From the NCBI GenBank assembly GCA_951406725.2, contig OX597818.1, forward strand, positions 38,564,001-38,628,000: a stretch of 64,000 nucleotides of DNA, given 5' to 3'. A model generated the notes under the pieces. That model made no database searches and had not been told where the DNA came from. It saw nothing but the letters and a program-made list of their open reading frames with translations. This DNA is from Octopus vulgaris (lineage: Eukaryota). Below, one piece after another: positions 1,691 to 64,000 of this stretch. How positions within the stretch are numbered: the first letter of the stretch is position 1; every line of letters starts with the position of its first letter. Both the position numbers and the translations under genes were made by a program.

Positions 1691-2952
1691 CTATCTATTG
1701 TGATTATTTTCATAACCAGAATCATGATAATTATGCAAAGAAAATTTTTTTGCTTGTTCATTTCGTAATGAAAAAATTCCTCTTATACTTCTTTTACTTG
1801 TAGAATTGGAATCCAAATGTATTCCCTCTGAATTTCTTGGAAGTGCAATTTTAACATCTTTGCTAATTGCTTTTATATTTCTTCTGGTAATATTATTTGA
1901 TTCAGGAATAGTTTTTAATATGTAGACATTTGTAGTCTTTGGTTCAATTTTGTTAGTATGTTTTAAACCGAGGGAATTCAAAATTTTCGATTTATTTTCA
2001 AGATTAAGTAATGACTTTAATGTAGAATTATATTTAACAGGAGGATTACTCAATAACGTTTTATCTTGGTTGTAGTTTCTATACGGGTTATAAGACACTT
2101 TACCTCTTTTGGTCGTATATATCTGGTTTGCACCAATTGATACTGTTCCTGAAATACGAGTTTCATATCCTGATGGTGGCTGCTGATAAAGATAATGTAG
2201 TCCTGGTTCTACTATGTAAGGTCCATCTCTAGTAACTGGCCTTTCAAAATTCATTACTGGTATTTGTTGAAGTATGTAAGGTCTAGGTTGTTGTATACTA
2301 AAAGGCACAGAGGGATTGTAAAGTATTGGTGATAACTTTCTAAAACCTTCAAATGGTACATTTTTTCCAGCATAATGATACAAAAGGTTATGTTGAAGCA
2401 ATTGTAGCAGTTTGTTTGGTAATCTAGAATAACTTTTACCATTTTGTCTTAGTGTGTAAAACTTGTATTCAGTGGAAGGTGTAGTATATCCATTATTTGG
2501 CATTGCATATACATTTGACTTTATACCAATATTTGTATTTGGTATTTTGTTTCTGTCTTGAGAGTGTGACATTTCTGAATTAGTTATTGTTTGTAGATGA
2601 GATGTGTCTTTCTTTGAAAGTGTTCTAAAGTCATTATCAAGCATCTGTACATGAGATTTATAACCAGAAAATGGAAGTGTTAAACTTCCTTTTGGCTCAT
2701 GACTCGATTGCTTAAATGCTGGAATTACTGAATTGATTAAATTAGGTATGTTGTTTCTCAGAGCTTTTGGTTTTTTAAGAGGTGCAGATGCGGAGGCATA
2801 ATTGTGAAAAAGAGATCTTTTAATGATGTTCTCCCTCCTTTGTTGGGTTGATGATTGTTTTAAACTCTTTGGATTCTCGGAATTATTTTGGTAGTTTGAA
2901 GACATTTGAACCTTTTGCATAAATATACCGTTCACTGGTACTGCCAAGTTAT
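1691..2952 (-). CDS. Gene A terminal coding exon (~420 aa, basic, Asn/Ser/Lys-rich with a Tyr/Pro-rich middle)
   Basis: ORF 1691..2947 has no 5' ATG but is preceded by acceptor cattttccttcag|AT (2953-2954). Phase 1 joins exon 2 in frame (C|AT = His). Stop TAG at 1691-1693. Joined CDS is 8868 nt = 2955 aa plus stop. Confidence 0.85.
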
Positions 2953-3379
2953 CTGAAGGAAAATGAAATAATGACTTTATCCAATAATGATAAAAGATAT
3001 ATAAGTTAATAAAAATTCAGAAAAACTACATGTATTTCTAAGGAAACCAAAATATGAGTTTCTTGTGCTAGTTTACTAAATACAAAGTGAAGCATTGAAA
3101 ATCTTGCCAAAGCCAGAGCCAGATACAATATTTTATTTCTTTGACTAATTTAACCAAAATATTGGCTTGAATCTGTTTACATTTTTGGACTGGTATCTTA
3201 TCATCTAGTTTTAATTTAATCTTTATTTTAAAATATTTATTCCAATAATCCATTTACAAATATCTATATTTCTAATTCATGCGACTATGAAAAAATGAAT
3301 GTTAAAACCAAAATAAAAAAAAAAACCCATTCCTTTTATGTGTGACATTCTCAGGAGATAAATTAACTAATTTTCCTTT

Positions 3380-3700: not shown

Positions 3701-5406
3701 GCGGAGTTTTTGACTGGTAGCACTTGCATGTGCAAGTTGTTTGCAAGACATACAAGCTGACACATTTGCTAATTGTTCACTACTTCTATTGCCAAATAAC
3801 ATTCCGATATATTTTCACATATTGCCAGTTTTACGCTTAGGTGCATTGGACCAAGAAGAGTTAAAAATCGTTGTCAGGGACATGGGGCTGCATAAGTGGC
3901 AAAATGGATATAAACTTTTAAACTAGAAGGCAGTCAGCCCTGTCAATACAACCAATTGCGACTCTCCCACAGATGAAGCAAATAGGTTATTAAGAAGGTT
4001 TAATAAGTTCATTTAGCAAGTATTTTGTGGCTGGATACTCACTTTTTCTAATGCTTTATCTTAAAGTATGATATACATATGTGTATATATATATATATCT
4101 ACATTCCAGTCAGGAGATTTAAGGCAAGCAGAATAATATATATTATCCAAGAATATGATGTAATACTGGTGACTGAGACTGAAGCCTTCACCTCTTCAGT
4201 AATATTCTGGTCTGTTGAGTTAGCAGCTAATGGAATAAAGAAAACAAATTCTAATTATATACAATCTGTAGATTGTAGTAGCAAAGCTTATTTTTAAAAT
4301 CTCAGGATATGGATGCATTCAAACAAGAGTTGATGTAAACTTCTGATTGGCTCAGTCTATAAGGCAGCTTCAGTTCTTTGTTGCATCACTAATGTCTCAT
4401 TCCAGAATGGAAAACAGACATAAAATGATGGTGTTTTATTTCTAATGCCTTTAAGAAAGAAATGAGCATCATTAACATCTTAATAATAATAATGAAATTA
4501 TTGTATACGGTGCTCAGGTGCACTGCATCTTGTTCCTGCTCTTTAATATGCATATGAAACCTTGTACTTATGAAAGAAACTACTTCTTCCCAATGATTTA
4601 TTAATTGACTAGCAATGCACCTTGGCATTGCCTGGGTGTTATGACCTACAACCACGTTGAATTATTTGTTCCTTTCTTATGGGCAGTATCAGCACACAAG
4701 GAGTATGAAGCAAACAACTCTTCTGTATAAACATGTTTTTCAGTCATTTTCTGATGAATAATGCTGCAGTTTCTGTCTACCAAATTCAGTCACAAGTCTG
4801 TGGTTGGCCTATGGCTATAGTAGAAAACACTTGCCCAAGGTACCATGCAAAGGGACTGAACATGGAACCATGTGGTTGGGAAGCAAACTGCTCAAACACA
4901 CAATCATTCTTGCACCTAATATGTGTGTGTTTACATTTGTTGGTAAATCGCATATTGTGTCCCATCATGCCTCAAAGTTAGCAGTTCATCAAGCAGAGAT
5001 CTATAAAATAAATGCCAGATTGAAATATGTACTGAGGTCAGTATGATCAATTAAATTTTGAAGGTGATACCTGATCATGGCGACAGTTGAAAGACTAAAC
5101 CCAGTAAAATAATGTTTAAAGACTTTATGGCTTCAAATTTAAGGTAATGGATTACTAACCACAAGATAATGAGTTCAAATCTTTGTATTGAACTTCCATT
5201 CTATATGATAACAATATATGTACATCTCAGTCTACTTGACTTCCAAGAATGAACAATTCAAATTTGAAGTTGAATAGGTTGCAGTAAGAAAGCTGTCCAG
5301 ATTTCTCAAAAAATTATTGTGCAAAATATTCTGAGAAAAAGTATTTTTTTCACCACAACAAAACACACACACACACACACACACACAGACACAGATACAG
5401 ACACAG

Positions 5407-6000: not shown

Positions 6001-6285
6001 AGCGTAAAGTATAATAGCCATCCCAATATGGCTAACCACTAAGGGTGGGTGTTACTGTAAACCGGTGATTACCGTGCGTTGACAAGAGGCAAATACCTCG
6101 AAACTGCAATCCGTGCGTATCACTTAGGCTTACGAGAGAGGGATGACCTCCCTTTGCAAATACCATAAGGGCATAGATAGTGTGCCTAAAGCCAGCTGGA
6201 GACGATGATCTCCTTGGGCTAAAAGCTACAGTAACACCTACCCTTAGTGGTTAGCCATATTGAGATGGCTATTTTACTTTACGTT
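6001..6285 (+). mobile_element. Hammerhead-bearing retrozyme-like element with an inverted copy of its 3' end
   Basis: 59-bp inverted repeats (6001-6059 / 6227-6285) enclose the hammerhead and a structured 3' module. Homologous to the copies at 44.3 and 57.0 kb. Confidence 0.6.
6064..6124 (+). ncRNA. Type I hammerhead ribozyme fold (U3-A8 core variant)
   Basis: GTGAT-TAC-CGTGCG | TTGACAA | GAGG-CAAATA-CCTC | GAA-AC-TGCA-AT-C | CGTGCG-T-ATCAC. Bulged stem I, stem II with CAAAUA loop, short stem III, AUC triplet. Confidence 0.75.
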
Positions 6286-6507
6286 GTCGAGCGGTTACTG
6301 TTTACATCTCGTTCAGAGATTTATTATTGATGAATAAAGCAGTATTCATTTATTTTGATGTGAATTACCAGTTTTTATACTTCAAGATACAAAATTTAAG
6401 TTTACTCTGTAGTTTTTAGCTCATATCCATGGCATTTGTATCTGATGCCCATTTCATACCTGTCTCATATGCTCAGTAAATTTTTGTTCTTTGTGTGCTA
6501 ATACATA

Positions 6508-7635: not shown

Positions 7636-7992
7636 AGCTGTGTATCAAACTTTTCTTCTTCTTCTCCTCCTTCCAAGTATGTACACTTGATAGGCTAGTT
7701 ACTGCAGTATTTGTTCCAAGATAACATCACATCAGGAAATACTGTGTTAAAAATACAATAAACATCAGACCGGGTGTGTGAAAATTCATCCCTGCAACAG
7801 ATACTGCTGGGTATAATACATGGGGTATGATACATCAACTGCATACACCTGATGTGCGTGTGTGCATGTGTATGTGTGTGTGTATGTGTGTGTGTGTGCA
7901 TGTGTATGTGTGTGTCTGCATGCATGCATGTGTGCTTGTGTATGTATGTATGTATGTATGTATATGTACATATGTATGAAAACTCAACTTAC

Positions 7993-10900
7993 GTTTTTGT
8001 GGTTTAGAGCCAGCTGCTTCCTGTTTTAATTCAATCTCTGCTACATGATGTTGGTTTGAAGATGGTTTCCAAATCTGTCTATTATTTCCAGTTTCCAGAA
8101 AAGTCATTAAACCCGTCTGGGGGTTAACTGGTATTGATTTGAATTTGTTTTGTAGTTTTGTGTGTTTTGCTCTTAGTGGTATTCCATTCTTTGCTTGGGT
8201 AAATGTTCCATACATTTTCCTTACTGATATTTCAGGTAAAAGTGTTTGCGTGGTACTTAGTGAGTTTTGTACTATTCCCAAATTTAGCCTGTTTGGCACT
8301 GTTCTTTGCCACATTTTAGGATTTATTCCTTGTGATAACGTTGGAATTATTACTAATCCTCTCATATCTGGCATCATTCGTGATGTTGTATATTGTTCTG
8401 CATTTTGAACAGTTCCAGGTAACATCACTGGTACAGTTCTCAGCAAATTCCCTTGTATATTTCCTGAGGAAATTTGTTGCCCATGTCCACCAAAATTTTG
8501 TTGTCCATTTGCAAGTAATATCCCTTGATCAATTCCAGATAACACCCTTTGACCATTTTTTGGTAATATCATTTGTCTGTTTCCTAGTAAAGCTCCTTGA
8601 ATAGCTTCTGGCGACACACTTTGCCTACCTCCCGTAAAGATCACCTTCCCAGGATTAAGTGAGATCCTTTGCACATTTTTTGGTAAAATTCCATATCCTG
8701 TTCCTGGTAATATCCTTTCCCTAGTCCCTGATACCATTGATTGTCCAGTCCCAGGTAAAATCACATACCAGTTTGCAGGTGACACTCCTTGAACAGTTGG
8801 GAGTAAGATACTTTGCCTATTTGCTGGCAACATCCTTTGCCCACTTCCAAGTGATATATCTTTTCTAATTCCAACTAAGATCCTTTGATTAGTGCCTGGT
8901 AGCACCCTCTGCCCAGTCACAGCTAACATCTCTTTCCCAGTTCCAGGTAAGATCGCCTGTTTGTTTTGTGGTAAGGTCAGTTGCAAAGTTTCTGGAAAGG
9001 TCCCTTTAACAGCTCCAGGTAACATCCCTTGCCAATTTTCTGCTAGGGTCCATTGGAGGGGTCTAGGCAACTCTTCATGCTCAATTACAGCTAAACTCTC
9101 TTGCTGATTGTTACCTAAGCTATGAACAAATTCAGGATACATCTGCTTAGTTCCAATGAAGTTATTTTGAACATTGTCTGATGAAATCATATATCCAGTT
9201 TCAGGTGAAATCCCTTGATGATTTCTTGGTAAAATCCCTTGCACAGGTATAAGTAACACATTTTGCCTATTTCTAAGTAAGATGCCATTAATATTTCCAG
9301 TTAAATCCCTCTGCATATTTTCATTTAATAGTCTATGCTCAGCTTGTGGTAAGACCCCTTGTCCAGTTTTAAGTAACATCCCTTGTCTAGTTCCAGGTAC
9401 CACTACTTGTCTATTTCCAGGAAAGATCCATTGACCATTTTCTGGTAACACCCCTTGTCCAATTTTAGGTACAGTCCAATGGCAATTACCAGGGTAGATC
9501 TCTTTAAGAGTTCCTGGTATCATCACTGGCTTAGCTGGAGGCGGTATTTCTTTCACTGTTCCTAATATTGTCCCTTGCACATTTCCAGGTACCACAACTT
9601 GCATATTTTTAGGTATGTTTCCTTGCAAATTATTTGGGAACCAGCTTTGACTATTGCTAGTTAATATTGTTTGCACATTTCCTTCTACTACCCCTTGCTC
9701 AGCTACAGGTAACAAACTGGGCACAGTTTCAGGAAAATACTCTTGCCTTGCTACAGGTAATATTTCCTTTATACCTCCAGGCAAAATGATTTGCTCTACT
9801 GGTAAAATTCTATGTCTGGTACCATTTAACCTTTCTTGTACATTTTCTGGTAATATCTGTTGTCCAGTTACAGGTGACACATTTTGTCCATTTTTAACTA
9901 AGGCCTTTTGCAAATATCCTGCAAATGTCTCTTGTCCAGTTCCAGGTAACATACCTTGCCTATATCCAAGAAGGAATTTTTGTTTCATTCCTGGTAATGC
10001 TTCTTGCACAATTCCAGATGAAGTTCCTTTCCCAGTTGCATTTAACATCCCTAGCCAATTCCTAGGTAACATCCATATTACATTTCCAGGTAGTGATCCT
10101 TGTTCAGTTGCAGGTAAAATTACTTGCTCATTTTTAGGTAAGATCCTTTGTGCATTTTCTGGTAAGTTCCCCTGTACAAAGATACCCTGTCTTCTTCCTG
10201 GTAGCATTGCCTGTTCAGTTCCAGGTAGTATCCCTTGCCCAGTTCCAAGTAACATACCTTGACCTGTTCCAGGTAATACCCCTTGCTTAAATACAGGTAA
10301 CATCCATTGCTCAGTTACAGGCAATATCTTTTGCTGAGTTCCCTGTAACATCTGTTGTCCAGTTCCAGGTAATATTACTTGCACAATAACAGGTAATGTT
10401 TTTTGTGGAACTGCATGTATCATCCCTTGCTGAGTTCCCGGCAACATCCATTGCTTAATTCCAGGTAACATCTCTTGCCTAGTTGCAGGTAACATGCCTT
10501 GCCTCATTGCAAGTAACTTCACTTTCCCAGCAGGTAATATCCCTTGCCCAGTGTTAGGTACTATTCTTTGCTCAGTGTCTGATAATATTCCTTCAGTAGT
10601 TCCAGGTAAAATCACTTGCTCATTTCCAGGGAACATTCCTTGACCAATTCCAAATAACATTCCCTGTTCATTTGTTGGTGATATCCATTGGTGAGTTATT
10701 GGTAACATCCCTTGTTGAGTTTCTGATAATATTCTTTCTACAGTTCCAGGTAATATCTCTTGCTTAATTCCAGGCATTATCCCTTGCCTAGTTTCAAGTA
10801 ACAACTCTTGCTCAGTAGATGGTAACATCACTTGCTCACTTCCAGGTAACATCACTTGCCCAGTTCTGAAAAGTATCCCTGGTTTAGAAGTTGGTAACAT

Positions 10901-44341: not shown

Positions 44342-45034
<693 letters not shown>

Positions 45035-54640: not shown

Positions 54641-54821
54641 CTTTTATATGTTTAACTCTTTGTGGATGTGGGTTGTGTCGGGTAAAAAACGAATTCTTGC
54701 TAAGCTGTCCAAAGCGATAACCTCCCCGGGATTCTGGCGGTCTGCTTGAAGAATCATAGTTAAGTAGCAGTCCACGAGGTGAAGAAACATTTGGCAGACT
54801 TAACTCTACAAAAGGATTCAT
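54641..54821 (-). CDS. TBATA: TBATA/SPATIAL-family gene, coding exon 1
   Basis: Encodes ...YRFGQLSKNSFFTRHNPHPQRVKHIKG, recognisable as the N-terminal SPATIAL-family motif (SFFxRHxPHPxxVxHI). Acceptor at 54823-54824, phase-1 donor G|GTAAAA. Confidence 0.85.
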
Positions 54822-54924
54822 TCTGAAAAATTTAAAGCAAATAAAAATTTTTTCATATCACACAATTTACTGCAAAATGTAAAGTTTATAAAAAGTGTTT
54901 TTCAACAATTTAAGTTTATTATTA

Positions 54925-55190
54925 ATATTTTTGTTAATCTTCAGCATTCTCCTTTCCATGGCTCTTTGTGTTGCTTTTAATTTATCTTCAATGTTCTTGT
55001 TGGTTGTCAATTTTTCAGATGCATAATCGTAAGCAGCACACACTGGTTGAAAACATTTCTTTTTAGACACATGAGCAAATTAACTGCTCATGGTATGATT
55101 CAATTTACCAAAGTCTACCCGTCCTGATTGCATTCATTGTTGAAGTTTCTTTGGTCTGATTTTTATCCTTTGTGCATATTATTTGTCCAT
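54925..55190 (-). pseudogene. RTE-like RT C-terminal fragment
   Basis: YASEKLT...KLKATQRAMERRML. Confidence 0.65.
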
Positions 55191-55439
55191 GATTAACAAA
55201 ATGGATAAGTAGAAAACAACAGGATAAGGTGGCAACAGGTTTAACAGATATTATTTGGAAAATAAAACTCTGAAATGGTCTTTTGTCTGTAAACAGACAT
55301 GACAGAAGTAGACACCTTTATAATCATTAAAATTTTTTAAAATCTGAAATTATACATTCAAATTATTTATTAATTGTCATAATGAGAATATTTAATATTT
55401 AGTAGACATGCCCTTTATATTTTTCAATGCAAGGACCCT

Positions 55440-55720
55440 ATTATGCATATTACTGATCAGATGATGAATATTCTCTGTGGAATTTCTTGCCAAGGTTCAT
55501 GCAGCAATCTCAAGAGATCTGACTTTGAAGATGCTTTCTTGTTCTTTTTATGAAGTGTCCTGTCCATTATGTCCCTTCAATAGGGTTCATATCTGGTGAC
55601 TGGTTTGGCCATGGAAGCTTTGTAATGCCATTTTCATCCAACAAATCTTGGGTCATTTTAGACAAGGAGCCTCATCTTTCATAAATAAAGTGTCTTCTTT
55701 AATCATTTCACCACTTGAGA
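55440..55720 (-). pseudogene. Tc1-type (DDxE) transposase fragment
   Basis: KLPWPNQSPDMNPIE on the minus strand at 55575-55620. Confidence 0.7.
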
Positions 55721-55921
55721 AGATTGGAAGGAGTCCTTTCTGCAATAAGGACACATATTTATCTGAGTTCATGTTTCCCTCACACTCCACCTGCTCTAAT
55801 CAAATACGCCTGACCTGTTGTAGTCTGTTATCAGATCTTTGTGGTTATTGTCACGGTCTACAATTTTGTTCCAACTGTTTTCAAATTCGGTTTATGGATT
55901 AAATTATTTGCTCTCTTTTAT

Positions 55922-56104
55922 TCTCTTTTACTTGTTTCAGTCATTTAACTGCAGCCATGCTGGAGCACCACCTTTAGTCGAGCAAATCAACCCCAGGACT
56001 TATTCTTTGGAAGCCTAGTACTTATTCTATCGGTCTCTTTTGCCAAACCGCTAAGTTAAGGGACGTAAACACACCAGCAGGGACGTCACAGACACACAAA
56101 CATA

Positions 56105-56168
<64 letters not shown>

Positions 56169-56330
56169 CGACAGGCTCCTTTCAGTTTCTATCAACCAAA
56201 TCCACTCACAAGGCTTTGGTCGGCCTGAGGCTATTGTAGAAGACACTTGCCCAAGGTGCCACACAGTGGGAATGAACCTGGAACCATATGGTTGATAAGC
56301 AAGCTACTTACCACACAGCCACTCCTGCGC
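55922..56330 (-). mobile_element. SINE family A copy
   Basis: Reverse complement of the family consensus. Confidence 0.8.
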
Positions 56331-56505
56331 TGAAATTTATTTTTCCTATAAATTCATAATTAAAAAGTTATTAGGCATTTAAAATTTGCAAAATTTTGGT
56401 ATTTTAGTCAAAAAGAAGCAAATATTTAACACATCACCATAAAGTTCTGTTAGCATATTAAGCAAAGAAACACCACCTGTTCGATAGATGATTGTGAAGA
56501 ACTCT

Positions 56506-56519
56506 GTTTCTATAGTAAC
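56506..56519. promoter_or_regulatory. RFX X-box-like motif upstream of the TBATA-like gene
   Basis: GTTTCTATAGTAAC fits GTHNYY-AT-RRNAAC. It lies ~1.7 kb upstream of the ATG exon, which has its own acceptor and so implies a non-coding first exon. Confidence 0.5.
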
Positions 56520-57011
56520 CAAAGATGCTGTGCATGTGCACAAGAAGTGTGACCACCAAATTGAGTGTAATCAACAAATTGAGAGTACCTGGGTATGATG
56601 TCAGACTTTGTTAGTAAATAAGCTGTTAACTTGATGCATCTAGTTCTCTTCTCCAAATTTTTTCTCACTATGTTGCTACCAGCTTCTTTGTTTAAACAGT
56701 TTATTAAAAGATCTTTTTTCTGTACAAAATCATTATCACCAACTTACTAAAATTCAAACTGAATATTACTAACTTTATTAAAATTTTAAAAAATGGAATA
56801 AATCTGTAACACTTTGTGTAGCAGAAGAAAAAAATTGTCGTTTCAGACATGATCACTCCTTAAAGAAAAAAAATATCATTTCATCATAATAACATTACCA
56901 GAGATAAAGTGACAAATGTTGAATTTGTTAGATGTACAAGGATCATTAGAAATAGAAATATTAAAATTTCTAAGTCTCTCTAAAGGAGACTACAGTAGCA
57001 GTACTGGATAT

Positions 57012-57270
57012 TAACAGTTATTGCCATGCTAATATGGCAGTCCATAAATATAGGATGTAAGTTGCTGTTGATTAGCTCCAAGGGGCCATCGCTTCTAGGT
57101 AGCTATATGACACATGAACCTGTGTCCATTATAACCTTCGAACAGGGGAGGTCAGCTGCTTCCCCTTGCTTGTCAGGCATCTGCAGACATGTTTCAGGGT
57201 ATTTGCCCTTTATCAAAGCAGAGTAGCCGAACCCAGCAGGCGTCACTGCTGACCAGCTGTTCGAAGGATT
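57012..57270 (-). mobile_element. Hammerhead-bearing retrozyme-like element
   Basis: 57016-57112 aligns by eye with the reverse complement of 6181-6275. Module order matches the 6.0-kb copy. Confidence 0.55.
57176..57228 (-). ncRNA. Type I hammerhead ribozyme fold (U3-A8 core variant)
   Basis: Minus strand: GGC-TAC-TCTGC-T | TTGATAA | AGGG-CAAATA-CCCT | GAA-ACATGT-C | T-GCAGA-T-GCC, enclosed in a longer hairpin (57135-57267). Confidence 0.75.
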
Positions 57271-58429
57271 GTTTCCTGACAACTTAAGAAGATAACAGAC
57301 TTAGATCACTGGATACCATAGGAGAAGAAAAAGCCTTGAGTACTTCACAACAACAGGAATTTTAAAAATGAAGAAGTTGAGAAAGACAGAAGGAGAAGAT
57401 AATTGATGGCTTTACCAACAGGCTTCCGAAAGACTAATCCCTAAATGTGCTACGTTGTGTATAGGGCAGAAAGGTAGAGAGATCCATAAAAGTCTATACC
57501 TGTTGGCAAGACTCATTACTTTGTTATCTTAACCCCCATCTCCAAGGAACTTTAAAACATAAAGATACTGTCATTCCTTATCACACAAAGGAGAAATGAA
57601 ATTTATGCTTCAGTTTTGGACTTTTGATCTCAAGAGCTAGTAGACTGCTGTTCACTTAACTGTCTTGCCTCTAAATCTCTTAAATATTTGGTATAGAAAA
57701 TACTCTGAGCAAAACAAACTAAAATAATTCCTCACACAAGTTGTCAGTTGCCATAGTACTTCAGTTTTATGAGCTGTTGTTTTCTAAAAGTCAACAGCTG
57801 TCGGTAGACTAAGCCTGGGTAATGCTGCCAATCTTTCAGAAGCCATGAAAACATGTTTTTAAGCTTAATGGTAAATTGAACACATAATAAAAGAGATAAT
57901 TACATACACTCTCTCACATTCTGTTTGTATGTATGTCTGTTTCTCTCTTTATTACAGTTCCCACCCTCTCCCCTCTCTCTCTCTCTCTCACTACATACTC
58001 ACACACACACATACTCTTTCTCTCTCTATATATATTTCTGGAGTTGTTAATAGAGATAGTTTTAAAATGAAATAAGTCAAATTTTGTATTTTATGCAATA
58101 AGGGGAAAAAAATAAACAAAAAATATCACTTTTTTTTCGCTAAAGAGAAGATTTAAAGATTAAATTCCTATGTTTTACATGAATTCCACCAAATAAAATT
58201 TTAATCTATATTTTGCATTAACAATATTTATTCATATAGCCCAATTAATTAATTTATAAACCATAAGGAATGTAGTTTATCAATTAAAATGAACGGAGGC
58301 CAAATCTACAGCATATATCAGGAGAAGCCTGTTTTATATATATATATATTCAGATGAATGGTACTTAAGTTAAAGGCACCAGAATTTTGTATCATATTAT
58401 CCATATAAAGCAAATGGGGTGATTATAAT

Positions 58430-58694
58430 CAAGGATATCCAAGGTAGTGTAGTACAATTGTTTCATGCTACTTCATTTTATTAAACACTGTAAGTATTAC
58501 ATCAGTTTTAAAATGTTGAGCAATCTTCAGCCACATATAGAATTTTTTTAATTAAATGGACAATGCACATTCTTATACTTATTTCATTTGCCAAAGCTGA
58601 AGATTGCTCAGCATTTTAAAACTGATGTAATACTTACAGTGTTTAAAATGAAGTAGCATGAAACAATTGTACTACACTACCTTGGATATCCTTG
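58430..58694. repeat. ~100-bp inverted repeat between (TA)n tracts (Penelope-like relic)
   Basis: 58430-58530 versus 58596-58694, near-identical in inverted orientation. Confidence 0.85.
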
Positions 58695-58708
58695 TTGCTT
58701 ATTTTGAT

Positions 58709-58742
<34 letters not shown>

Positions 58743-58807
58743 ATATATATAATTAGTGAATGGAAGAAATGGAGTTGAACGAAGATTGTACAGAATTCCT
58801 TTTATTA

Positions 58808-58890
58808 CATTCTACACATGTTTCAAAGGCCACAATTTTCCAAATTCTGATTAAATAAGGATACCATATTGCAGCTTTCTCTTCAGAAAA
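58808..58890 (-). ncRNA. Minimal hammerhead-like motif, probably from a Penelope-like element pLTR
   Basis: Minus strand: TTT-CTGAAGA-GAAAGCTGCAAT...ATTGTGGCCTTT-GAA-AC-ATGT-GT-A-GAA. The fragment lies between (TA)n tracts. Confidence 0.5.
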
Positions 58891-58987
58891 AACCAGGAAT
58901 TACGTTGTCAGAACAAAACAAAACAGAGGCGCAGCAAAGCAATTCGAACGAGGACGAATTATATATATATATAAATATATATATACA

Positions 58988-59845
58988 CACAAGGTGCGAT
59001 GGGTAAATTGTCATCATTTTATATTTTTAATTTCACCCATGCACATTGTTTGGTCTTGATTTTGTTGACTATACAGTATAGTAGGTTTAGTTGGGGACCA
59101 TCTGCGACAAAAACAGCACCATGATGCAATTCACTCACCCAGAAATTTGGAAATGACATGCTGTACTGTTTGACATTTGTGCTGGAAGCTCCAATATGAA
59201 CATTTCAGTGTGTTGGGTGTACCGAGAGTGATTAAAAATCTAACATCTAGTCAATATCATGGTGTTTAGAGTGATCACTAGTGATGGTGACGTTATGCCT
59301 CCATTCATCTTCCCATGCGGCCTCAGACTTAACACAGAGGCCTGGAGTAGGTAGAGCTACCCTGGGTCAAGAGGGTGAGTGCTGGAAGAACCTATGTCTC
59401 TGCACCATGCCACACAGGACCCAGCATCATACCAAATAAGCAGGAAAACCAGTCATCGCTGTCAGACAATTTCTGCAACCCCATCACCCATAATATCTGA
59501 TCACCTAACTCCATAGACTGCAACCCCAGTGATTATTATGTGTGGGGCACAGTTGAGCGAGAGACCAACCAAACTTCTTGTAACACCAAAGATGAACTGA
59601 AGGCAAGAATTATGGCAGCATTCACCAATTTAAATAAGGAAACTGCCCCGAAGAGTTGCAGGAGATTCCAAAGTCATCTGAAGGCCATGGTTGAAGCCAA
59701 TGGCAATTTTATTGAATATATTTACTCTTTAGTATTTCAAGATATTTTTATGTAATTTTGGTAAATATATCTGTTAAAATGAGATGCCAGTGTTATTTTC
59801 ATTTTTGTGTAATTTAGACAACAATATATTCACCACACTCTGTGT
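58988..59845 (+). mobile_element. Decayed Tc1/mariner (maT-like) element
   Basis: SPNSIDCNPSDYYVWGTVE...ELKARI...CRRFQSHLKAMVEANGNFIE, with degenerate TIRs. Confidence 0.75.
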
Positions 59846-60150
59846 ATATATATGTATTCCAAAGTATATATATTGACTGTTATGAACATTTAAACTTGTC
59901 AACATTGAAACTTTTTAAAATATATTTCTAATTCATAATTCAAGATTTTTACTATTGATAAACAAAAAATATTGTTGAAACTAGTTTGGTATATATGTAA
60001 ATAAATTTATTTAAAAACAATTACAATTTTTTCAAATTTCGGTGCATTTTCAACAACAAAGTTGCCTATATTTTTTCCTGCATGGAAATACACCCCTCTC
60101 TTTTGTTATATATATATAAATCCTCCTCCTCCTCCTCCTCCTCCTCCTCC

Positions 60151-60151
<1 letters not shown>

Positions 60152-60203
<52 letters not shown>

Positions 60204-60810
60204 GTTTAACATCCGTTTTCCATGCTAGCATGGGTTGGACGGTTTGACTGGGGTCTGGGAAGCCAGGAGGCTGCACCAGGCTCCAGTCTGATCTGGCAGT
60301 GTTTCTACAGCTGGATGCCCTTCCTAATGCCAACCACTTCGTGAGTGTAGTGGGTGCTTTTTATGTGCCACCAGCATAGGTGCCAGGGGAGGCTGGCAAC
60401 GGCCACGATCGGTTGGTGCTTTTTATATGCCACCAGCATGGAAGCCAGTCAAGGCAGCATTGGCATCGGTCACGTTTGGATGGTGCTTTTTATGTGCCAC
60501 CAGCACGGGTATCACAACTACAATTTCCATTTGATTTTTATTTTGATGTTGATGTACTTGACTCAATAGGTCTCCTCAAGCACAGCAGGTCGCCCTACAA
60601 TCCAAGGTAAGCACAGCAGGTCGTTTTGCAATCCGAGGTACTTTTGATGGGCTGGGGCTATGCAAGACTGGTGCAGGAAACAGCCATGAACTCACATTAT
60701 TTGTCGGGTCTTTGCAGTCAAAGCATATCTCCAGATGTCTCAGTCTTTCGTCATTGCCTCTGTGAAGCCCAATGTTCGAAGGTCATGCTTGACCACCTCA
60801 TCCCATGTCT
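60152..60810 (-). mobile_element. RTE-type LINE: ORF C-terminus plus 3' UTR
   Basis: Reverse-complement homologue of 50503-50982, with extra internal repeats. Confidence 0.8.
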
Positions 60811-61679
60811 TATATATACTTCTCAGGAAGTTGAGCCTCATGGAGGAAATGACCATGGACCAAGATGTCTGGTGATATGAAGTTTGTGAGATGACCTGCC
60901 CAAATTAGCGAAACTGAGTTCTAGAAGTGCTGTGTGTCCCACCCACACTTAACAAGAAAACTTCTCACACACTCTATCACAACGAATCAAACTATGTCTC
61001 TACATCCCTTCTCTTCCTCACATTTCCACTTTATGTACTATGATTGCCTCCTGCTACCCAATATTGTCCTCTTGGCCTTGTGCCACTGTATCATTGCTCT
61101 CTGTTTGCCTCCAATCTGTGCATTCTACCCACATACCTTGTCTCACTCTATTATTGCCATCTACTAGCCCCTGACCTGGGTGTTCCATCCACATGTAACA
61201 AGAAAACTTTTCCCTCACTCCACCACAACGAACCAAACTACATCTCTTCTCTTTTTTGCATTTCCTCGTTCATTCACTATGCCTAGCTCTCCTTGCCTAG
61301 CTCACGTTCCCCAATTCTGTCCTCACACTCCTGTTCCTCTGTATCATTACTATCTGGTAGCCCTCCAACTCTCTATATATATATACCCAAGTCTTTTGCC
61401 ACTTACTTGCACTCATTAATCACACTCTCATCACAATATCCTGCCACATATATCATGGCATTTGATCCTTAAGTGTATGCCCTGGTACTTGCCAGTATCT
61501 ATAGCTCTCTCTTCCTTTACTCAACCATCTCATTTATACTCTAATCCCCGTTTCTTGTGAGTATGCCTGGCGTTTTGCCACTATCTCCATCCTGCAGTCT
61601 TCCATTCTCTCTCACTCTCCTTCTCTTGCACTTACCCCAGGTTGGGCAACCGTGTATTTTCTTTGCGGTAACACACATG

Positions 61680-62790
61680 TTTTTGTCTAGGAGTTGATAA
61701 GTGGTTGGTGAGATCTGTGCAAGCCATTTACAAGGATGCTGTCAGTAGGGTGAAAATTAGCAAAGAATATAACAAAGAACTGTGAGGAGGTAGGAGTTCA
61801 CCAAGGATTGGTTCTCAGACCTCTGTTGCTTATCCTAAGCCTCTAGTCAAGCTACTCTGTGTTGACAACTTTGTTCTTATAGATGAATCTCTACTAGAAT
61901 TAGACAAGAAATTTCAGGTATGAAAGCAGGGACCAGAACCTAAGGGCCATAGAATTAATTTAGCAAAGACCAAAGTACTAGTGAGCAGGAAAGTAGACAA
62001 ATTACTTCGAGATTAAAGCCCTGTTTGATATGTAGAAATGATGTTGGTAGAAATTCAATTTGGTGTATCCAGTACAAGCTATGGACACATAAGAGGTGCA
62101 GTGGAATCACAGGAAGGTTAACTGAAAAAGCCTTTGCATATGGCAGACGTGCAGGAACAATAAACATAAGAATTAGATTTGCTCAAATGCCCAGATGGTT
62201 TCCTTGAGGTTGTAAATAATTTCTGTTACCTAAGTGACCAAATTAGCAGTGGGGGAGGATGCTCTGAAAGTATTGTTGCTAGAGTAAGAATAGGATGGAG
62301 AAAGTTCAGAGAGATATTACCTTTGTTGGCAAAAGGCAGATTGTATGATGCTTGTGTATAAATGACTATGCTTCATGGTAATGAGATGTGGGCCCTGAAT
62401 GCAGATGACATGCACAGACTGTAGAGGAATGAAGCTAGTGTGCTCTGATGGCTGTGCAACATCAGAGGGCATGTATGACAAGTACAAATGTGTGGAGAGA
62501 AGTTGGGCATTAGGGTAACCAGGTATAGCATGCAAGAGAGATGACCATGATAGTTTGGTCATCTGAAGTATTTGAATGATGAGAACTGTATAAAGAAGTG
62601 CTGATTGCTTAAAGTGGATGGCACTTGTGGAAGAGGGAGACCCAGGAAGACATGAGATGAAGTAGTGACAGCTGATCTCAAGATGCTGAGCCTCCCAGAG
62701 GTGATGCCAATGGATTGAGATGTCTAGCAATATGAGATTCTTTAGAAGACCTGCTCCCCTCAGGGAAACTGAGTTCTGGAAGTGCTGTAT
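61680..62790 (+). pseudogene. Decayed RTE-clade reverse transcriptase with a PHD-like Cys insertion
   Basis: Frameshifted motifs GVHQGxVLxPLL, INLAKTKVLV, PCLICRNDVGRNSIWCxxxxLWTHKRCSGI, FCYLSDQIS and ARVRIGWRKF. Confidence 0.8.
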
Positions 62791-64000
62791 ATTCTACCAA
62801 CAAGTAGCAATAATTCACACATCTCATACCAATAAACCAAATTACATCTTTTCTTCATGCATTATGCTTGTTTCCCCACCCAAAACCTGCAACCCAACAT
62901 CACTTGGTTATCCCTCTTTCTTCTCCTTTCCCTGCCAACTGTATAATTGCTATCCTGTTGCCTCCCCCTACACACCTGTGGTTAGCCACCCACTGCATTC
63001 CTCCCTTTCCATCTCCTCTTTCTCTTTTGTCCTTTTGTGAACTCCTTGCACAAACACTCTGGGCAATCCTCAGTCATTCCATCTACATTCATCTCCTTGT
63101 ATCTTGAGAGCATGCCCTGGCATATCACTACCATCTCCTTTGCTCTGTTTCTCTCCCTCACTCTCTTGCTTGCCCTTTCTCTCTCTCTCTCTCTCTCTGT
63201 GTCTCTTTCTCTCTCTCCCACTGACTGGAGTAACTATGTCTACAGTATTAAAACTGAAAGTATTATCTCACATTACAATAGAGATGATATTGTTTCACTC
63301 TTGACACATAATACTGAAATAGTGTAAGAGATAAAAGATTGTTCCAGGCTTGCATTAGGCAAGAAGTTGAAAATGTTTTTGGCCCATGACACTTCATGGA
63401 CTCTAAGTAAGGCATGTGTAAGATTTGAATGAAATCAGTTGGGTAGTTCTTGAGTTTTAATGATGCATACAGACAGACATACATACATTCTCAGTTTTAT
63501 ATATTCATTACATAAATAATATTTTCAAGATTAAATAAAAAGACAACAAATGGAAAATATGACCTACCTATATATATATGATTAAAAAACGTATGGTAAA
63601 TAAATGAACACATTCTAAATACACAGGCAGATAGAAAACATAGTCAAATGCAATTTCAGCCATTATTGATAATATTTCTTCCACTCTGAAGGCACCTACA
63701 AGAAATTTGCCAGGAATCGGACCTAAACATAGCAAAATGAAATGGGCCTGAGACGAGACCATTAGTGGATGGATGGGGGACAAAACAATAAACAGAATAA
63801 AGGCTTAAGGTTTCACAAAGACAACAATTAACAATGATAATACATAAATGTAAAACCTTGGGGCTGCAAGACAAAACAAAAATGGATAACACAAAGAAGA
63901 AATGAAAACTGACCTAAAGGACTAGACAGGAGGGTAGAGCGAGAATCTCAGAAAATCCTGTCCACTATGATTGAAGGCAACATGAAAAGAATGACACCAC

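What the first reader, a model, noticed from the sequence alone, without database searches (positions are those of the whole stretch)
57135..57283. Second U3-A8 hammerhead at the tip of a 133-nt hairpin, sense to and upstream of the TBATA-like gene
Seen: minus-strand core UUGAUAA, CAAAUA loop, palindromic stem III ACAUGU and a GUC site (cut between 57186 and 57185). It is closed by GGTCAGC/GCTGACC and CCTTCGAACAG/CTGTTCGAAGG helices. An X-box-like GTTTCCTGACAAC (57271-57283) directly abuts it. The same double core change in a copy with different stems argues against random decay. Caveat: U-U mismatch at the first stem I position. Inference: it could cut transcripts initiating upstream of TBATA.
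Basis: partly seen in the sequence, partly recalled or inferred. Interest (0 to 1): 0.72.

Follow-up and report, generated by a model that had tools for sequence, protein, structure and literature searches.

The report
Worn retrozyme copy in TBATA intron
The hammerhead motif is real, but it is one worn copy of a 361-base non-coding repeat scattered through an octopus genome; the repeat is likely a retrozyme pasted in by Penelope-type enzymes, and this copy sits inside a TBATA intron, where it is predicted to cut poorly if at all.

Summary
They are not specific to TBATA. Window 56952-57274 (minus strand) is a 5'-truncated copy of a dispersed ~361-bp repeat. The family core occurs 136 times exactly in the genome, and U3-A8 is the family state. 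Insertions show head-to-tail partial tandems, 5' inversions, two fixed 3' ends at (TA)n targets and no shared ORF, which fits an animal non-LTR retrozyme likely moved by Penelope enzymes. The U-U mismatch is private to this copy (1 of 31). Two spliced contigs place a TBATA 5'-UTR exon about 12 kb further on, so the copy lies inside a 14.3-kb intron rather than upstream of the gene. It is on the sense strand and has no partner copy nearby for the dimer that its stem III is predicted to need. The X-box match is at chance level. The 'first' hammerhead belongs to a second retrozyme family. U3-A8 is already published. This scan has reported U3-A8 octopus retrozymes of this unit size before, on other DNA. 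Verdict: new member of a known kind; the locus itself is ordinary.

The parts
56952..57274 (-). 5'-truncated single copy of the ~361-bp retrozyme-like repeat (family A); covers unit positions 37-359 of the 359-nt reference stretch and ends at one of the family's two fixed 3' ends
   Evidence: about 90% identity to dispersed copies with the same boundaries; 23 of 323 positions differ from the column majority
57176..57228 (-). Type I hammerhead motif: GGC-UAC, stem I (UCUGCU/UGCAGA), U3-A8 core, stem II with CAAAUA loop, palindromic stem III, bulged U, GCC
   Evidence: sequence; family alignment; covariation across families
57185..57186 (-). Predicted cleavage site after C17 (GUC)
   Evidence: position; cleavage not tested
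57217..57217 (-). Private A-to-U change at position 2.1, giving the U-U mismatch with 1.1
   Evidence: 30 of 31 rows have A and only the window copy has U; shared by 0 of 31 aligned pieces of other copies
57135..57267 (-). 133-nt hairpin carrying the ribozyme at its tip; a family-wide feature of the repeat unit
   Evidence: the same arm forms in circular folds of two other units
57271..57283 (.). X-box-like string; straddles the 5' insertion junction, chance-level match
   Evidence: base 57271 is private to this copy, shared by 0 of 27
54823..64000 (-). Part of the TBATA 5'-UTR intron that holds the element; it continues to window-equivalent 69078 (G000:C5:38633078)
   Evidence: spliced contigs of runs X6 and X8; upstream exon and GT donor located in L104
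54639..54822 (-). First coding exon of TBATA; ATG at 54821, directly after the acceptor AG (54824-54823)
   Evidence: tblastn with P0002; sequence; contigs
6057..6329 (+).

Best explanation
The motif is the hammerhead of one 5'-truncated, mutated copy of a dispersed 361-bp non-coding repeat, likely a non-LTR retrozyme, which sits sense in the 5'-UTR intron of octopus TBATA and is likely a passive passenger there. Shown: the repeat, its insertion anatomy, the conserved ribozyme fold, the private mismatch and the intronic position. Inferred cycle: tandem copies are transcribed. Two hammerheads pair through their palindromic stem III and cut out a monomer. A host ligase closes the monomer into a circle. 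A Penelope-type RT/GIY-YIG enzyme nicks (TA)n-rich DNA and primes at one of two AT-rich sites of the unit, copying past the unit junction to leave partial tandems and 5' inversions. This copy would be transcribed with TBATA pre-mRNA. It is predicted to cut little or not at all, because stem III does not form in a monomer, no partner copy lies nearby, and the pair next to the cut site is broken.
For: High copy number: 2187 first-look candidates, 40 scored, 45 matches; 136 exact 39-nt cores, control 0. Anatomy in 85 loci: 34 have a head-to-tail junction and 34 a head-to-head inversion; 109 of 122 free 3' ends lie at two sites and 0 of 122 at the cut site; 81 of those 109 are flanked by TA/TAA repeats against 9.9% background. 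No flank shared across the family in 60 loci. Structure kept across families: stem I pairs at 5 or more of 6 positions in 37 of 45 distinct rows against 178 of 2000 controls; stem III is palindromic in 29 of 45, in five different sequences. Compensatory U-A to G-C change in stem I within family A. Circular fold z -7.9. A young Penelope-like family with ~980-aa open frames exists in the genome; two of its printed 3' tails, and the L052 copy, run into (TA)n. Decay of this copy. Monomer stem III pairing probability 0.0. No second hammerhead-bearing family-A copy in the window plus 60 kb beyond it. Intron position.
Against: Cleavage, circles and mobilisation were not shown. Only 3 of 85 family-A loci hold two same-strand hammerheads, so long arrays are rare for this family. 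Neither unit resembles the terminal repeat of the one Penelope family checked (24 loci), so the mobilising partner is unidentified. The catalytic core, loop 2 and stem III of the window copy match the family, stems I (5 of 6 pairs) and II still fold, and its divergence (7.1%) is within the range of other copies (1.9-9.9%), so residual activity is possible. The intron call rests on two low-depth contigs (4.8 and 5.7) from 2 of 4 runs laid.
Confidence: 0.85

Rival explanations
1. The unit is the solo terminal repeat (pLTR) of an autonomous Penelope-like element, and the copies are 5'-truncated insertions of that element rather than an independently replicating retrozyme.
For: Partial tandems, 5' inversions and (TA)n targets are Penelope features (PMC8557442 passages). 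Xenopus retrozymes are related to pLTRs (bioRxiv 2026.07.22.740005).
Against: Upstream of a full unit lies the end of another unit, not an ORF. No family-wide shared flank in 60 loci. The Penelope copy near L052 has its own C3-G8 hammerhead with a long stem II and no similarity to units A or B. Only one Penelope family was checked.
Confidence: 0.08
2. The copy is still active and cuts TBATA pre-mRNA in the intron, in cis or by pairing in trans with free retrozyme RNA through the palindromic stem III, and so tunes TBATA output.
For: Sense orientation inside the intron, about 2.4 kb before the acceptor. Core intact. Natural U3-A8 covariation is known and such pairs were active in vitro (PMC3088659 passage).
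Against: Private U-U mismatch at the pair next to the cut. Monomer stem III does not form. No nearby partner. One of nine Xenopus retrozyme dimers cleaved in vitro. No sign of locus-specific conservation.
Confidence: 0.05
3. One reading: a promoter-proximal ribozyme next to an RFX X-box cuts transcripts that start upstream of TBATA.
For: The motif is sense to TBATA and 2.4 kb before the ATG exon. An alternative start site between the element and that exon is not excluded.
Against: Both contigs that cover the exon splice from an exon at window-equivalent 69079 and beyond. The X-box match is at chance level and straddles the insertion junction.
Confidence: 0.02

Closest known systems
Metazoan non-LTR retrozymes (Cervera and de la Pena 2020, PMC7229834; parts 2-4 of 6 read, supplement not readable)
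   Same: Non-coding unit of 170-400 nt (mussel 350-390 bp; here 361 and 355). One type I hammerhead per unit with short stem III. Head-to-tail copies. Highly self-paired predicted circle. Penelope elements in the same genome.
   Different: U3-A8 core in most copies and A10.1-U11.1 in family A. Family A is mostly dispersed 1-2-unit insertions with 5' inversions and two fixed 3' ends. Circles and cleavage were not shown here.
Solo retrozyme monomers of vertebrates (Li, Clavereau and Pollet 2026, bioRxiv 10.64898/2026.07.22.740005; parts 1-3 of 5 read, supplements closed)
   Same: Dispersed monomers are common; 42-44% of Xenopus copies are intronic; mobilisation by Penelope enzymes is proposed.
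   Different: Mollusc genome. No parent pLTR was found here for either unit (one Penelope family checked). This copy is not an 'active retrozyme' by their two-unit criterion.
U3-A8 hammerheads: Schistosoma mansoni Cercyon min-HHR (PMC4209133; parts 1-2 of 4 read, 2 of 3 supplements searched) and natural variants in Perreault et al. 2011 (PMC3088659; passages)
   Same: The same compensatory swap of the C3-G8 core pair; palindromic stem III that suggests dimeric cleavage.
   Different: Here the swap is in a canonical-size ribozyme (6-bp stem I, 4-bp stem II, CAAAUA loop, UAC/U bulge), it is the majority state of this class in the genome, and both states coexist in one family (B).
Intronic ribozymes such as CPEB3 (PMC10919898; search listing and start of abstract only)
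   Same: Self-cleaving motif on the sense strand of an intron.
   Different: CPEB3 is a conserved HDV-like ribozyme at one locus (recalled). This is one of many repeat copies and carries a private damaging change.

Membership tests
Type I hammerhead ribozyme | Core N3-U4-G5-A6-N7-N8-A9, G12-A13-A14, A15.1-U16.1, H17, with positions 3 and 8 paired | tested here: met
   UUGAUAA...GAA-A...U-C with U3-A8; paired states 1158 of 1301 genome matches
Type I hammerhead ribozyme | Stems I and II with covariation | tested here: met
   Family level. The window copy pairs 5 of 6 in stem I.
Type I hammerhead ribozyme | Stable stem III in a monomer | tested here: not met
   Pairing probability 0.0; palindromic as in dimeric metazoan hammerheads, 29 of 45 rows
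Type I hammerhead ribozyme | Match to an Rfam hammerhead model | tested here: not met
   No hammerhead hit at E<=1 or E<=10
Type I hammerhead ribozyme | Self-cleavage | not testable with these tools
   Needs an in vitro assay
Non-LTR retrozyme | Non-coding unit of about 170-400 nt with one type I hammerhead | tested here: met
   361-bp unit
Non-LTR retrozyme | Head-to-tail tandem copies | tested here: met
   34 of 85 loci have a junction and 3 of 85 have two same-strand hammerheads; family B forms a 355-bp array. The window copy itself is single.
Non-LTR retrozyme | No LTR-flanked or RT-coding body attached | tested here: met
   No family-wide shared flank in 60 loci; a sample, not all copies
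Non-LTR retrozyme | Highly self-paired predicted circle | tested here: met
   z -7.9 and -7.2 for two family-A units, 60 shuffles each
Non-LTR retrozyme | Expressed as circular and linear monomer RNA | not testable with these tools
   Only assembled contigs were available
Penelope-like element pLTR | Flanks an RT + GIY-YIG ORF | tested here: not met
   one Penelope family and a sample of copies only
Penelope-type insertion footprint | 5' truncation, partial tandems, 5' inversions, (TA)n target bias | tested here: met
   compared with PMC8557442 passages
RFX X-box | Match to the consensus above chance | tested here: not met
   2 mismatches; 52 matches against 52.85 expected; consensus recalled

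The most novel reading that the evidence does not exclude
Octopus retrozymes have moved to a U3-A8 core as a tuned, dimer-dependent ribozyme, and abundant free retrozyme RNA completes the dimer in trans on solitary intronic copies such as this one, so a mobile RNA cuts host pre-mRNAs (here TBATA). Family B, with U3-A8 and C3-G8 subfamilies about 90% identical, is a natural experiment on what the swap does.
Probability: 0.06. Interest if true: 0.75.

Novelty: new member of a known kind. Interest (0 to 1): 0.27.

Why it matters
For TBATA it most likely matters little: it is a decaying repeat insertion in an intron. The family is of moderate use to ribozyme and transposon specialists. It extends non-LTR retrozymes to cephalopods; my two searches listed no paper on a cephalopod retrozyme, although 235 hammerhead-1 matches are reported in the giant squid genome. 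It shows U3-A8 as the majority core of canonical-size hammerheads in this genome (1038 against 120). It offers near-identical U3-A8 and C3-G8 subfamilies for a direct kinetic comparison. Its two fixed 3' ends, away from the cut site, make the proposed Penelope-driven copying of circles testable.

Tried and rejected
Rfam scans gave no hammerhead match. A search for a canonical C3-G8 version of the family-A core with the same position 7 found 0 matches. The search for an RT ORF attached to family A found none: the RT-like ORFs in flanks are unrelated neighbours, and the Penelope copy near L052 has its own terminal hammerhead. That ORF's GIY-YIG match is below Pfam's cut-off (E 0.002), so its assignment rests partly on recalled motifs. 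No target-site duplication was found at the window copy. The X-box was rejected as chance. RNA: no RNA holder listed on record, and only contigs were available, so expression level, strand, circles and cut ends could not be read. Family-like contigs cover the element, and those at 57217 show the family base and not the window base; animals differ, so I draw nothing from this. X7 and X10 gave no cover of the exon. The UTR exon was not in the window and was found beyond it. Lunse et al. (PMC5785218) is not held and may describe further U3-A8 Penelope variants. The PMC7229834 supplement was unreadable and the bioRxiv supplements were closed; either could mention cephalopods. A search for rescue kinetics of the double change found 0 papers. 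The sequence look-up in earlier findings returned nothing. Orthologous presence or absence of this copy in other octopods was not tested.

Full report
Observation. The minus strand reads UCUGCU-UUGAUAA-AGGG-CAAAUA-CCCU-GAA-ACAUGU-C/UGCAGA. The fold is far more stable than shuffles (z -4.75, 0 of 200). My descriptor finds only this motif and one at +6079 in the window. Rfam has no hammerhead match.

It is a repeat. A genome search with 221 nt gave 2187 first-look candidates; 40 were scored and 45 matches listed, at 86-96% identity apart from the window itself. Similarity spans 56952-57274. The 39-nt family core occurs exactly 136 times (control 0); the same core with C3-G8 occurs 0 times. Upstream of full copies lies the end of another copy, which gives a unit of about 361 bp. 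I examined 85 loci: L002-L030 without the duplicate L019, plus L035-L091; L032-L034 were left out because I had picked them as pairs. Of these, 34 have a head-to-tail junction, 34 a head-to-head 5' inversion and 3 two same-strand hammerheads. Of 122 free 3' ends, 57 and 52 fall at two AT-rich sites and 0 fall within 5 nt of the cut site. 81 of those 109 ends are flanked by TA/TAA repeats against 9.9% background; the scored stretch included 4 element bases, which inflates this a little. These loci were chosen by similarity or exact core, so they favour intact copies. No flank is shared across the family in 60 loci. Partial tandems, inverted 5' copies and (TA)n bias are described for Penelope-like elements (PMC8557442, passages). 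A young Penelope-like family with open frames near 980 aa exists here (150 scored of 17468 candidates). It has its own C3-G8 hammerhead, and some of its tails run into (TA)n, but it shows no similarity to the unit in 24 loci. Mobilisation by Penelope enzymes is therefore inferred from the footprint, and the partner is not identified.

The ribozyme is under selection at family level. Genome-wide counts of cores with a CAAAUA loop are U3-A8 1038, C3-G8 120, U3-G8 88 and C3-A8 55 (controls 23, 0, 1, 0). The odds ratio is about 26 by hand, but copies are related, so this is not a probability. I took the first 30 U3-A8 and first 20 C3-G8 matches plus the two window motifs; 52 rows reduced to 45 distinct. 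Stem I pairs at 5 or more of 6 positions in 37 of 45 (control 178 of 2000). Stem III is a perfect palindrome in 29 of 45, in five different sequences (ACAUGU, ACUAGU, ACGCGU, ACUGCAGU, ACCUAGGU). Within family A the distal stem I pair switches from U-A to G-C in a subfamily. The UAC/bulged-U and CAAAUA elements resemble the loop 1-loop 2 contact of the Schistosoma ribozyme (recalled). Family A has A10.1-U11.1 where canonical hammerheads have G-C (PMC4209133). Ten of the 20 C3-G8 loci are 86-91% identical to that family's U3-A8 window copy, so the swap occurred within one family. U3-A8 is published: in Schistosoma Penelope ribozymes (PMC4209133) and as a natural covariation already shown active in vitro (PMC3088659, passage).

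This copy is worn. It alone of 31 rows has U at position 2.1. It differs from the column majority at 23 of 323 positions (7.1%; other copies median 4.5%, range 1.9-9.9%, n 28). Against my reading, its core, loop 2 and stem III are intact and stems I and II still fold. Stem III has pairing probability 0.0 in monomers, which fits dimeric cleavage as reported for metazoan hammerheads. No other hammerhead-bearing family-A copy lies in the window or the next 60 kb. Only one of nine Xenopus dimers cleaved in vitro.

Position relative to TBATA. The gene is real: a SPATIAL domain match, 90% identity to an Octopus bimaculoides TBATA protein, and seven coding exons between 30240 and about 54822. The ATG follows an acceptor AG directly. 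One contig each from 2 of 4 runs laid (X6, X8; two studies; depth 4.8 and 5.7) covers this exon exactly, continues into the next coding exon on one side, and has foreign letters on the other. Those letters are absent from the window. They match exactly at window-equivalent 69081, next to a GT donor, with a 2-mismatch duplicate at 67645. The element therefore lies sense in a ~14.3-kb 5'-UTR intron, about 2.4 kb before the acceptor. Other start sites are not excluded. Intronic retrozyme copies are common (42-44% in Xenopus). The X-box-like string has 2 mismatches, occurs at chance frequency, and straddles the insertion junction with one private base.

Mechanism. Shown: the repeat, its anatomy, the conserved fold, the private mismatch and the intronic position. 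Inferred from PMC7229834 and the footprint: transcription of tandem copies, dimeric self-cleavage, ligation to circles, and target-primed copying by a Penelope enzyme from two AT-rich sites. The absence of 3' ends at the cut site favours a circular or uncut multimeric template over a cut linear monomer, but cannot tell those two apart.

Novelty. This is a new member of a known kind. Searches for hammerhead/ribozyme/octopus, retrozyme/cephalopod and U3-A8 listed no description of this family. One relevant paper and some supplements could not be read. Earlier notes of this scan describe U3-A8 octopus retrozymes of similar unit size at other places; I had reached my reading before seeing them, and they are not independent evidence. 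Interest 0.27.

Noticed in passing
window 6057-6329 (+); L099/L112 (G000:C4:13.62 Mb); L168-L186: Second retrozyme-like family (355-bp unit, tandem array of about ten units, 3074 first-look candidates) with U3-A8 and C3-G8 subfamilies 86-91% identical. The window copy has a G-to-A change that breaks its stem III palindrome.
   Followed up: partly
L152, L167; L172, L182, L184; L177, L178, L181, L187: At least three further hammerhead repeat families with a CAAAUA loop and different stems; one has U3-A8 or U3-G8, the others C3-G8.
   Followed up: no
L052:3300-6099, L111, L113-L137: Young Penelope-like family (open frames up to ~980 aa, 98-99% identical) with a C3-G8 hammerhead with a long stem II in its terminal repeat. 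In L052 a family-A insertion sits beside its (TA)n tail.
   Followed up: partly
L104:3528-3728 and 4963-5164 (window-equivalent 67528-69164): The TBATA 5'-UTR exon and its donor site are duplicated (202 bp, 97%) about 1.4 kb apart; possible alternative first exons.
   Followed up: partly
window 7835-15562 (-) and 1691-3016 (-): A 2575-codon open frame with internal repeats (a 144-bp period near 12900-14300) and a 441-codon open frame; likely giant exons of a gene downstream of TBATA.
   Followed up: no
window 44684-44747 and 44944-44977 (+): Short diverged fragments of the family-A unit without the hammerhead, in another TBATA intron.
   Followed up: no
window 58430-58694: 265-bp inverted repeat (84% self-complementary), MITE-like.
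   Followed up: no
L033/L034 (G000:C7:97.13-97.15 Mb): Family-A insertion next to C2H2 zinc-finger-like ORFs, duplicated with its flanks in a 12-kb segmental repeat; both copies end at unit position 184.
   Followed up: no
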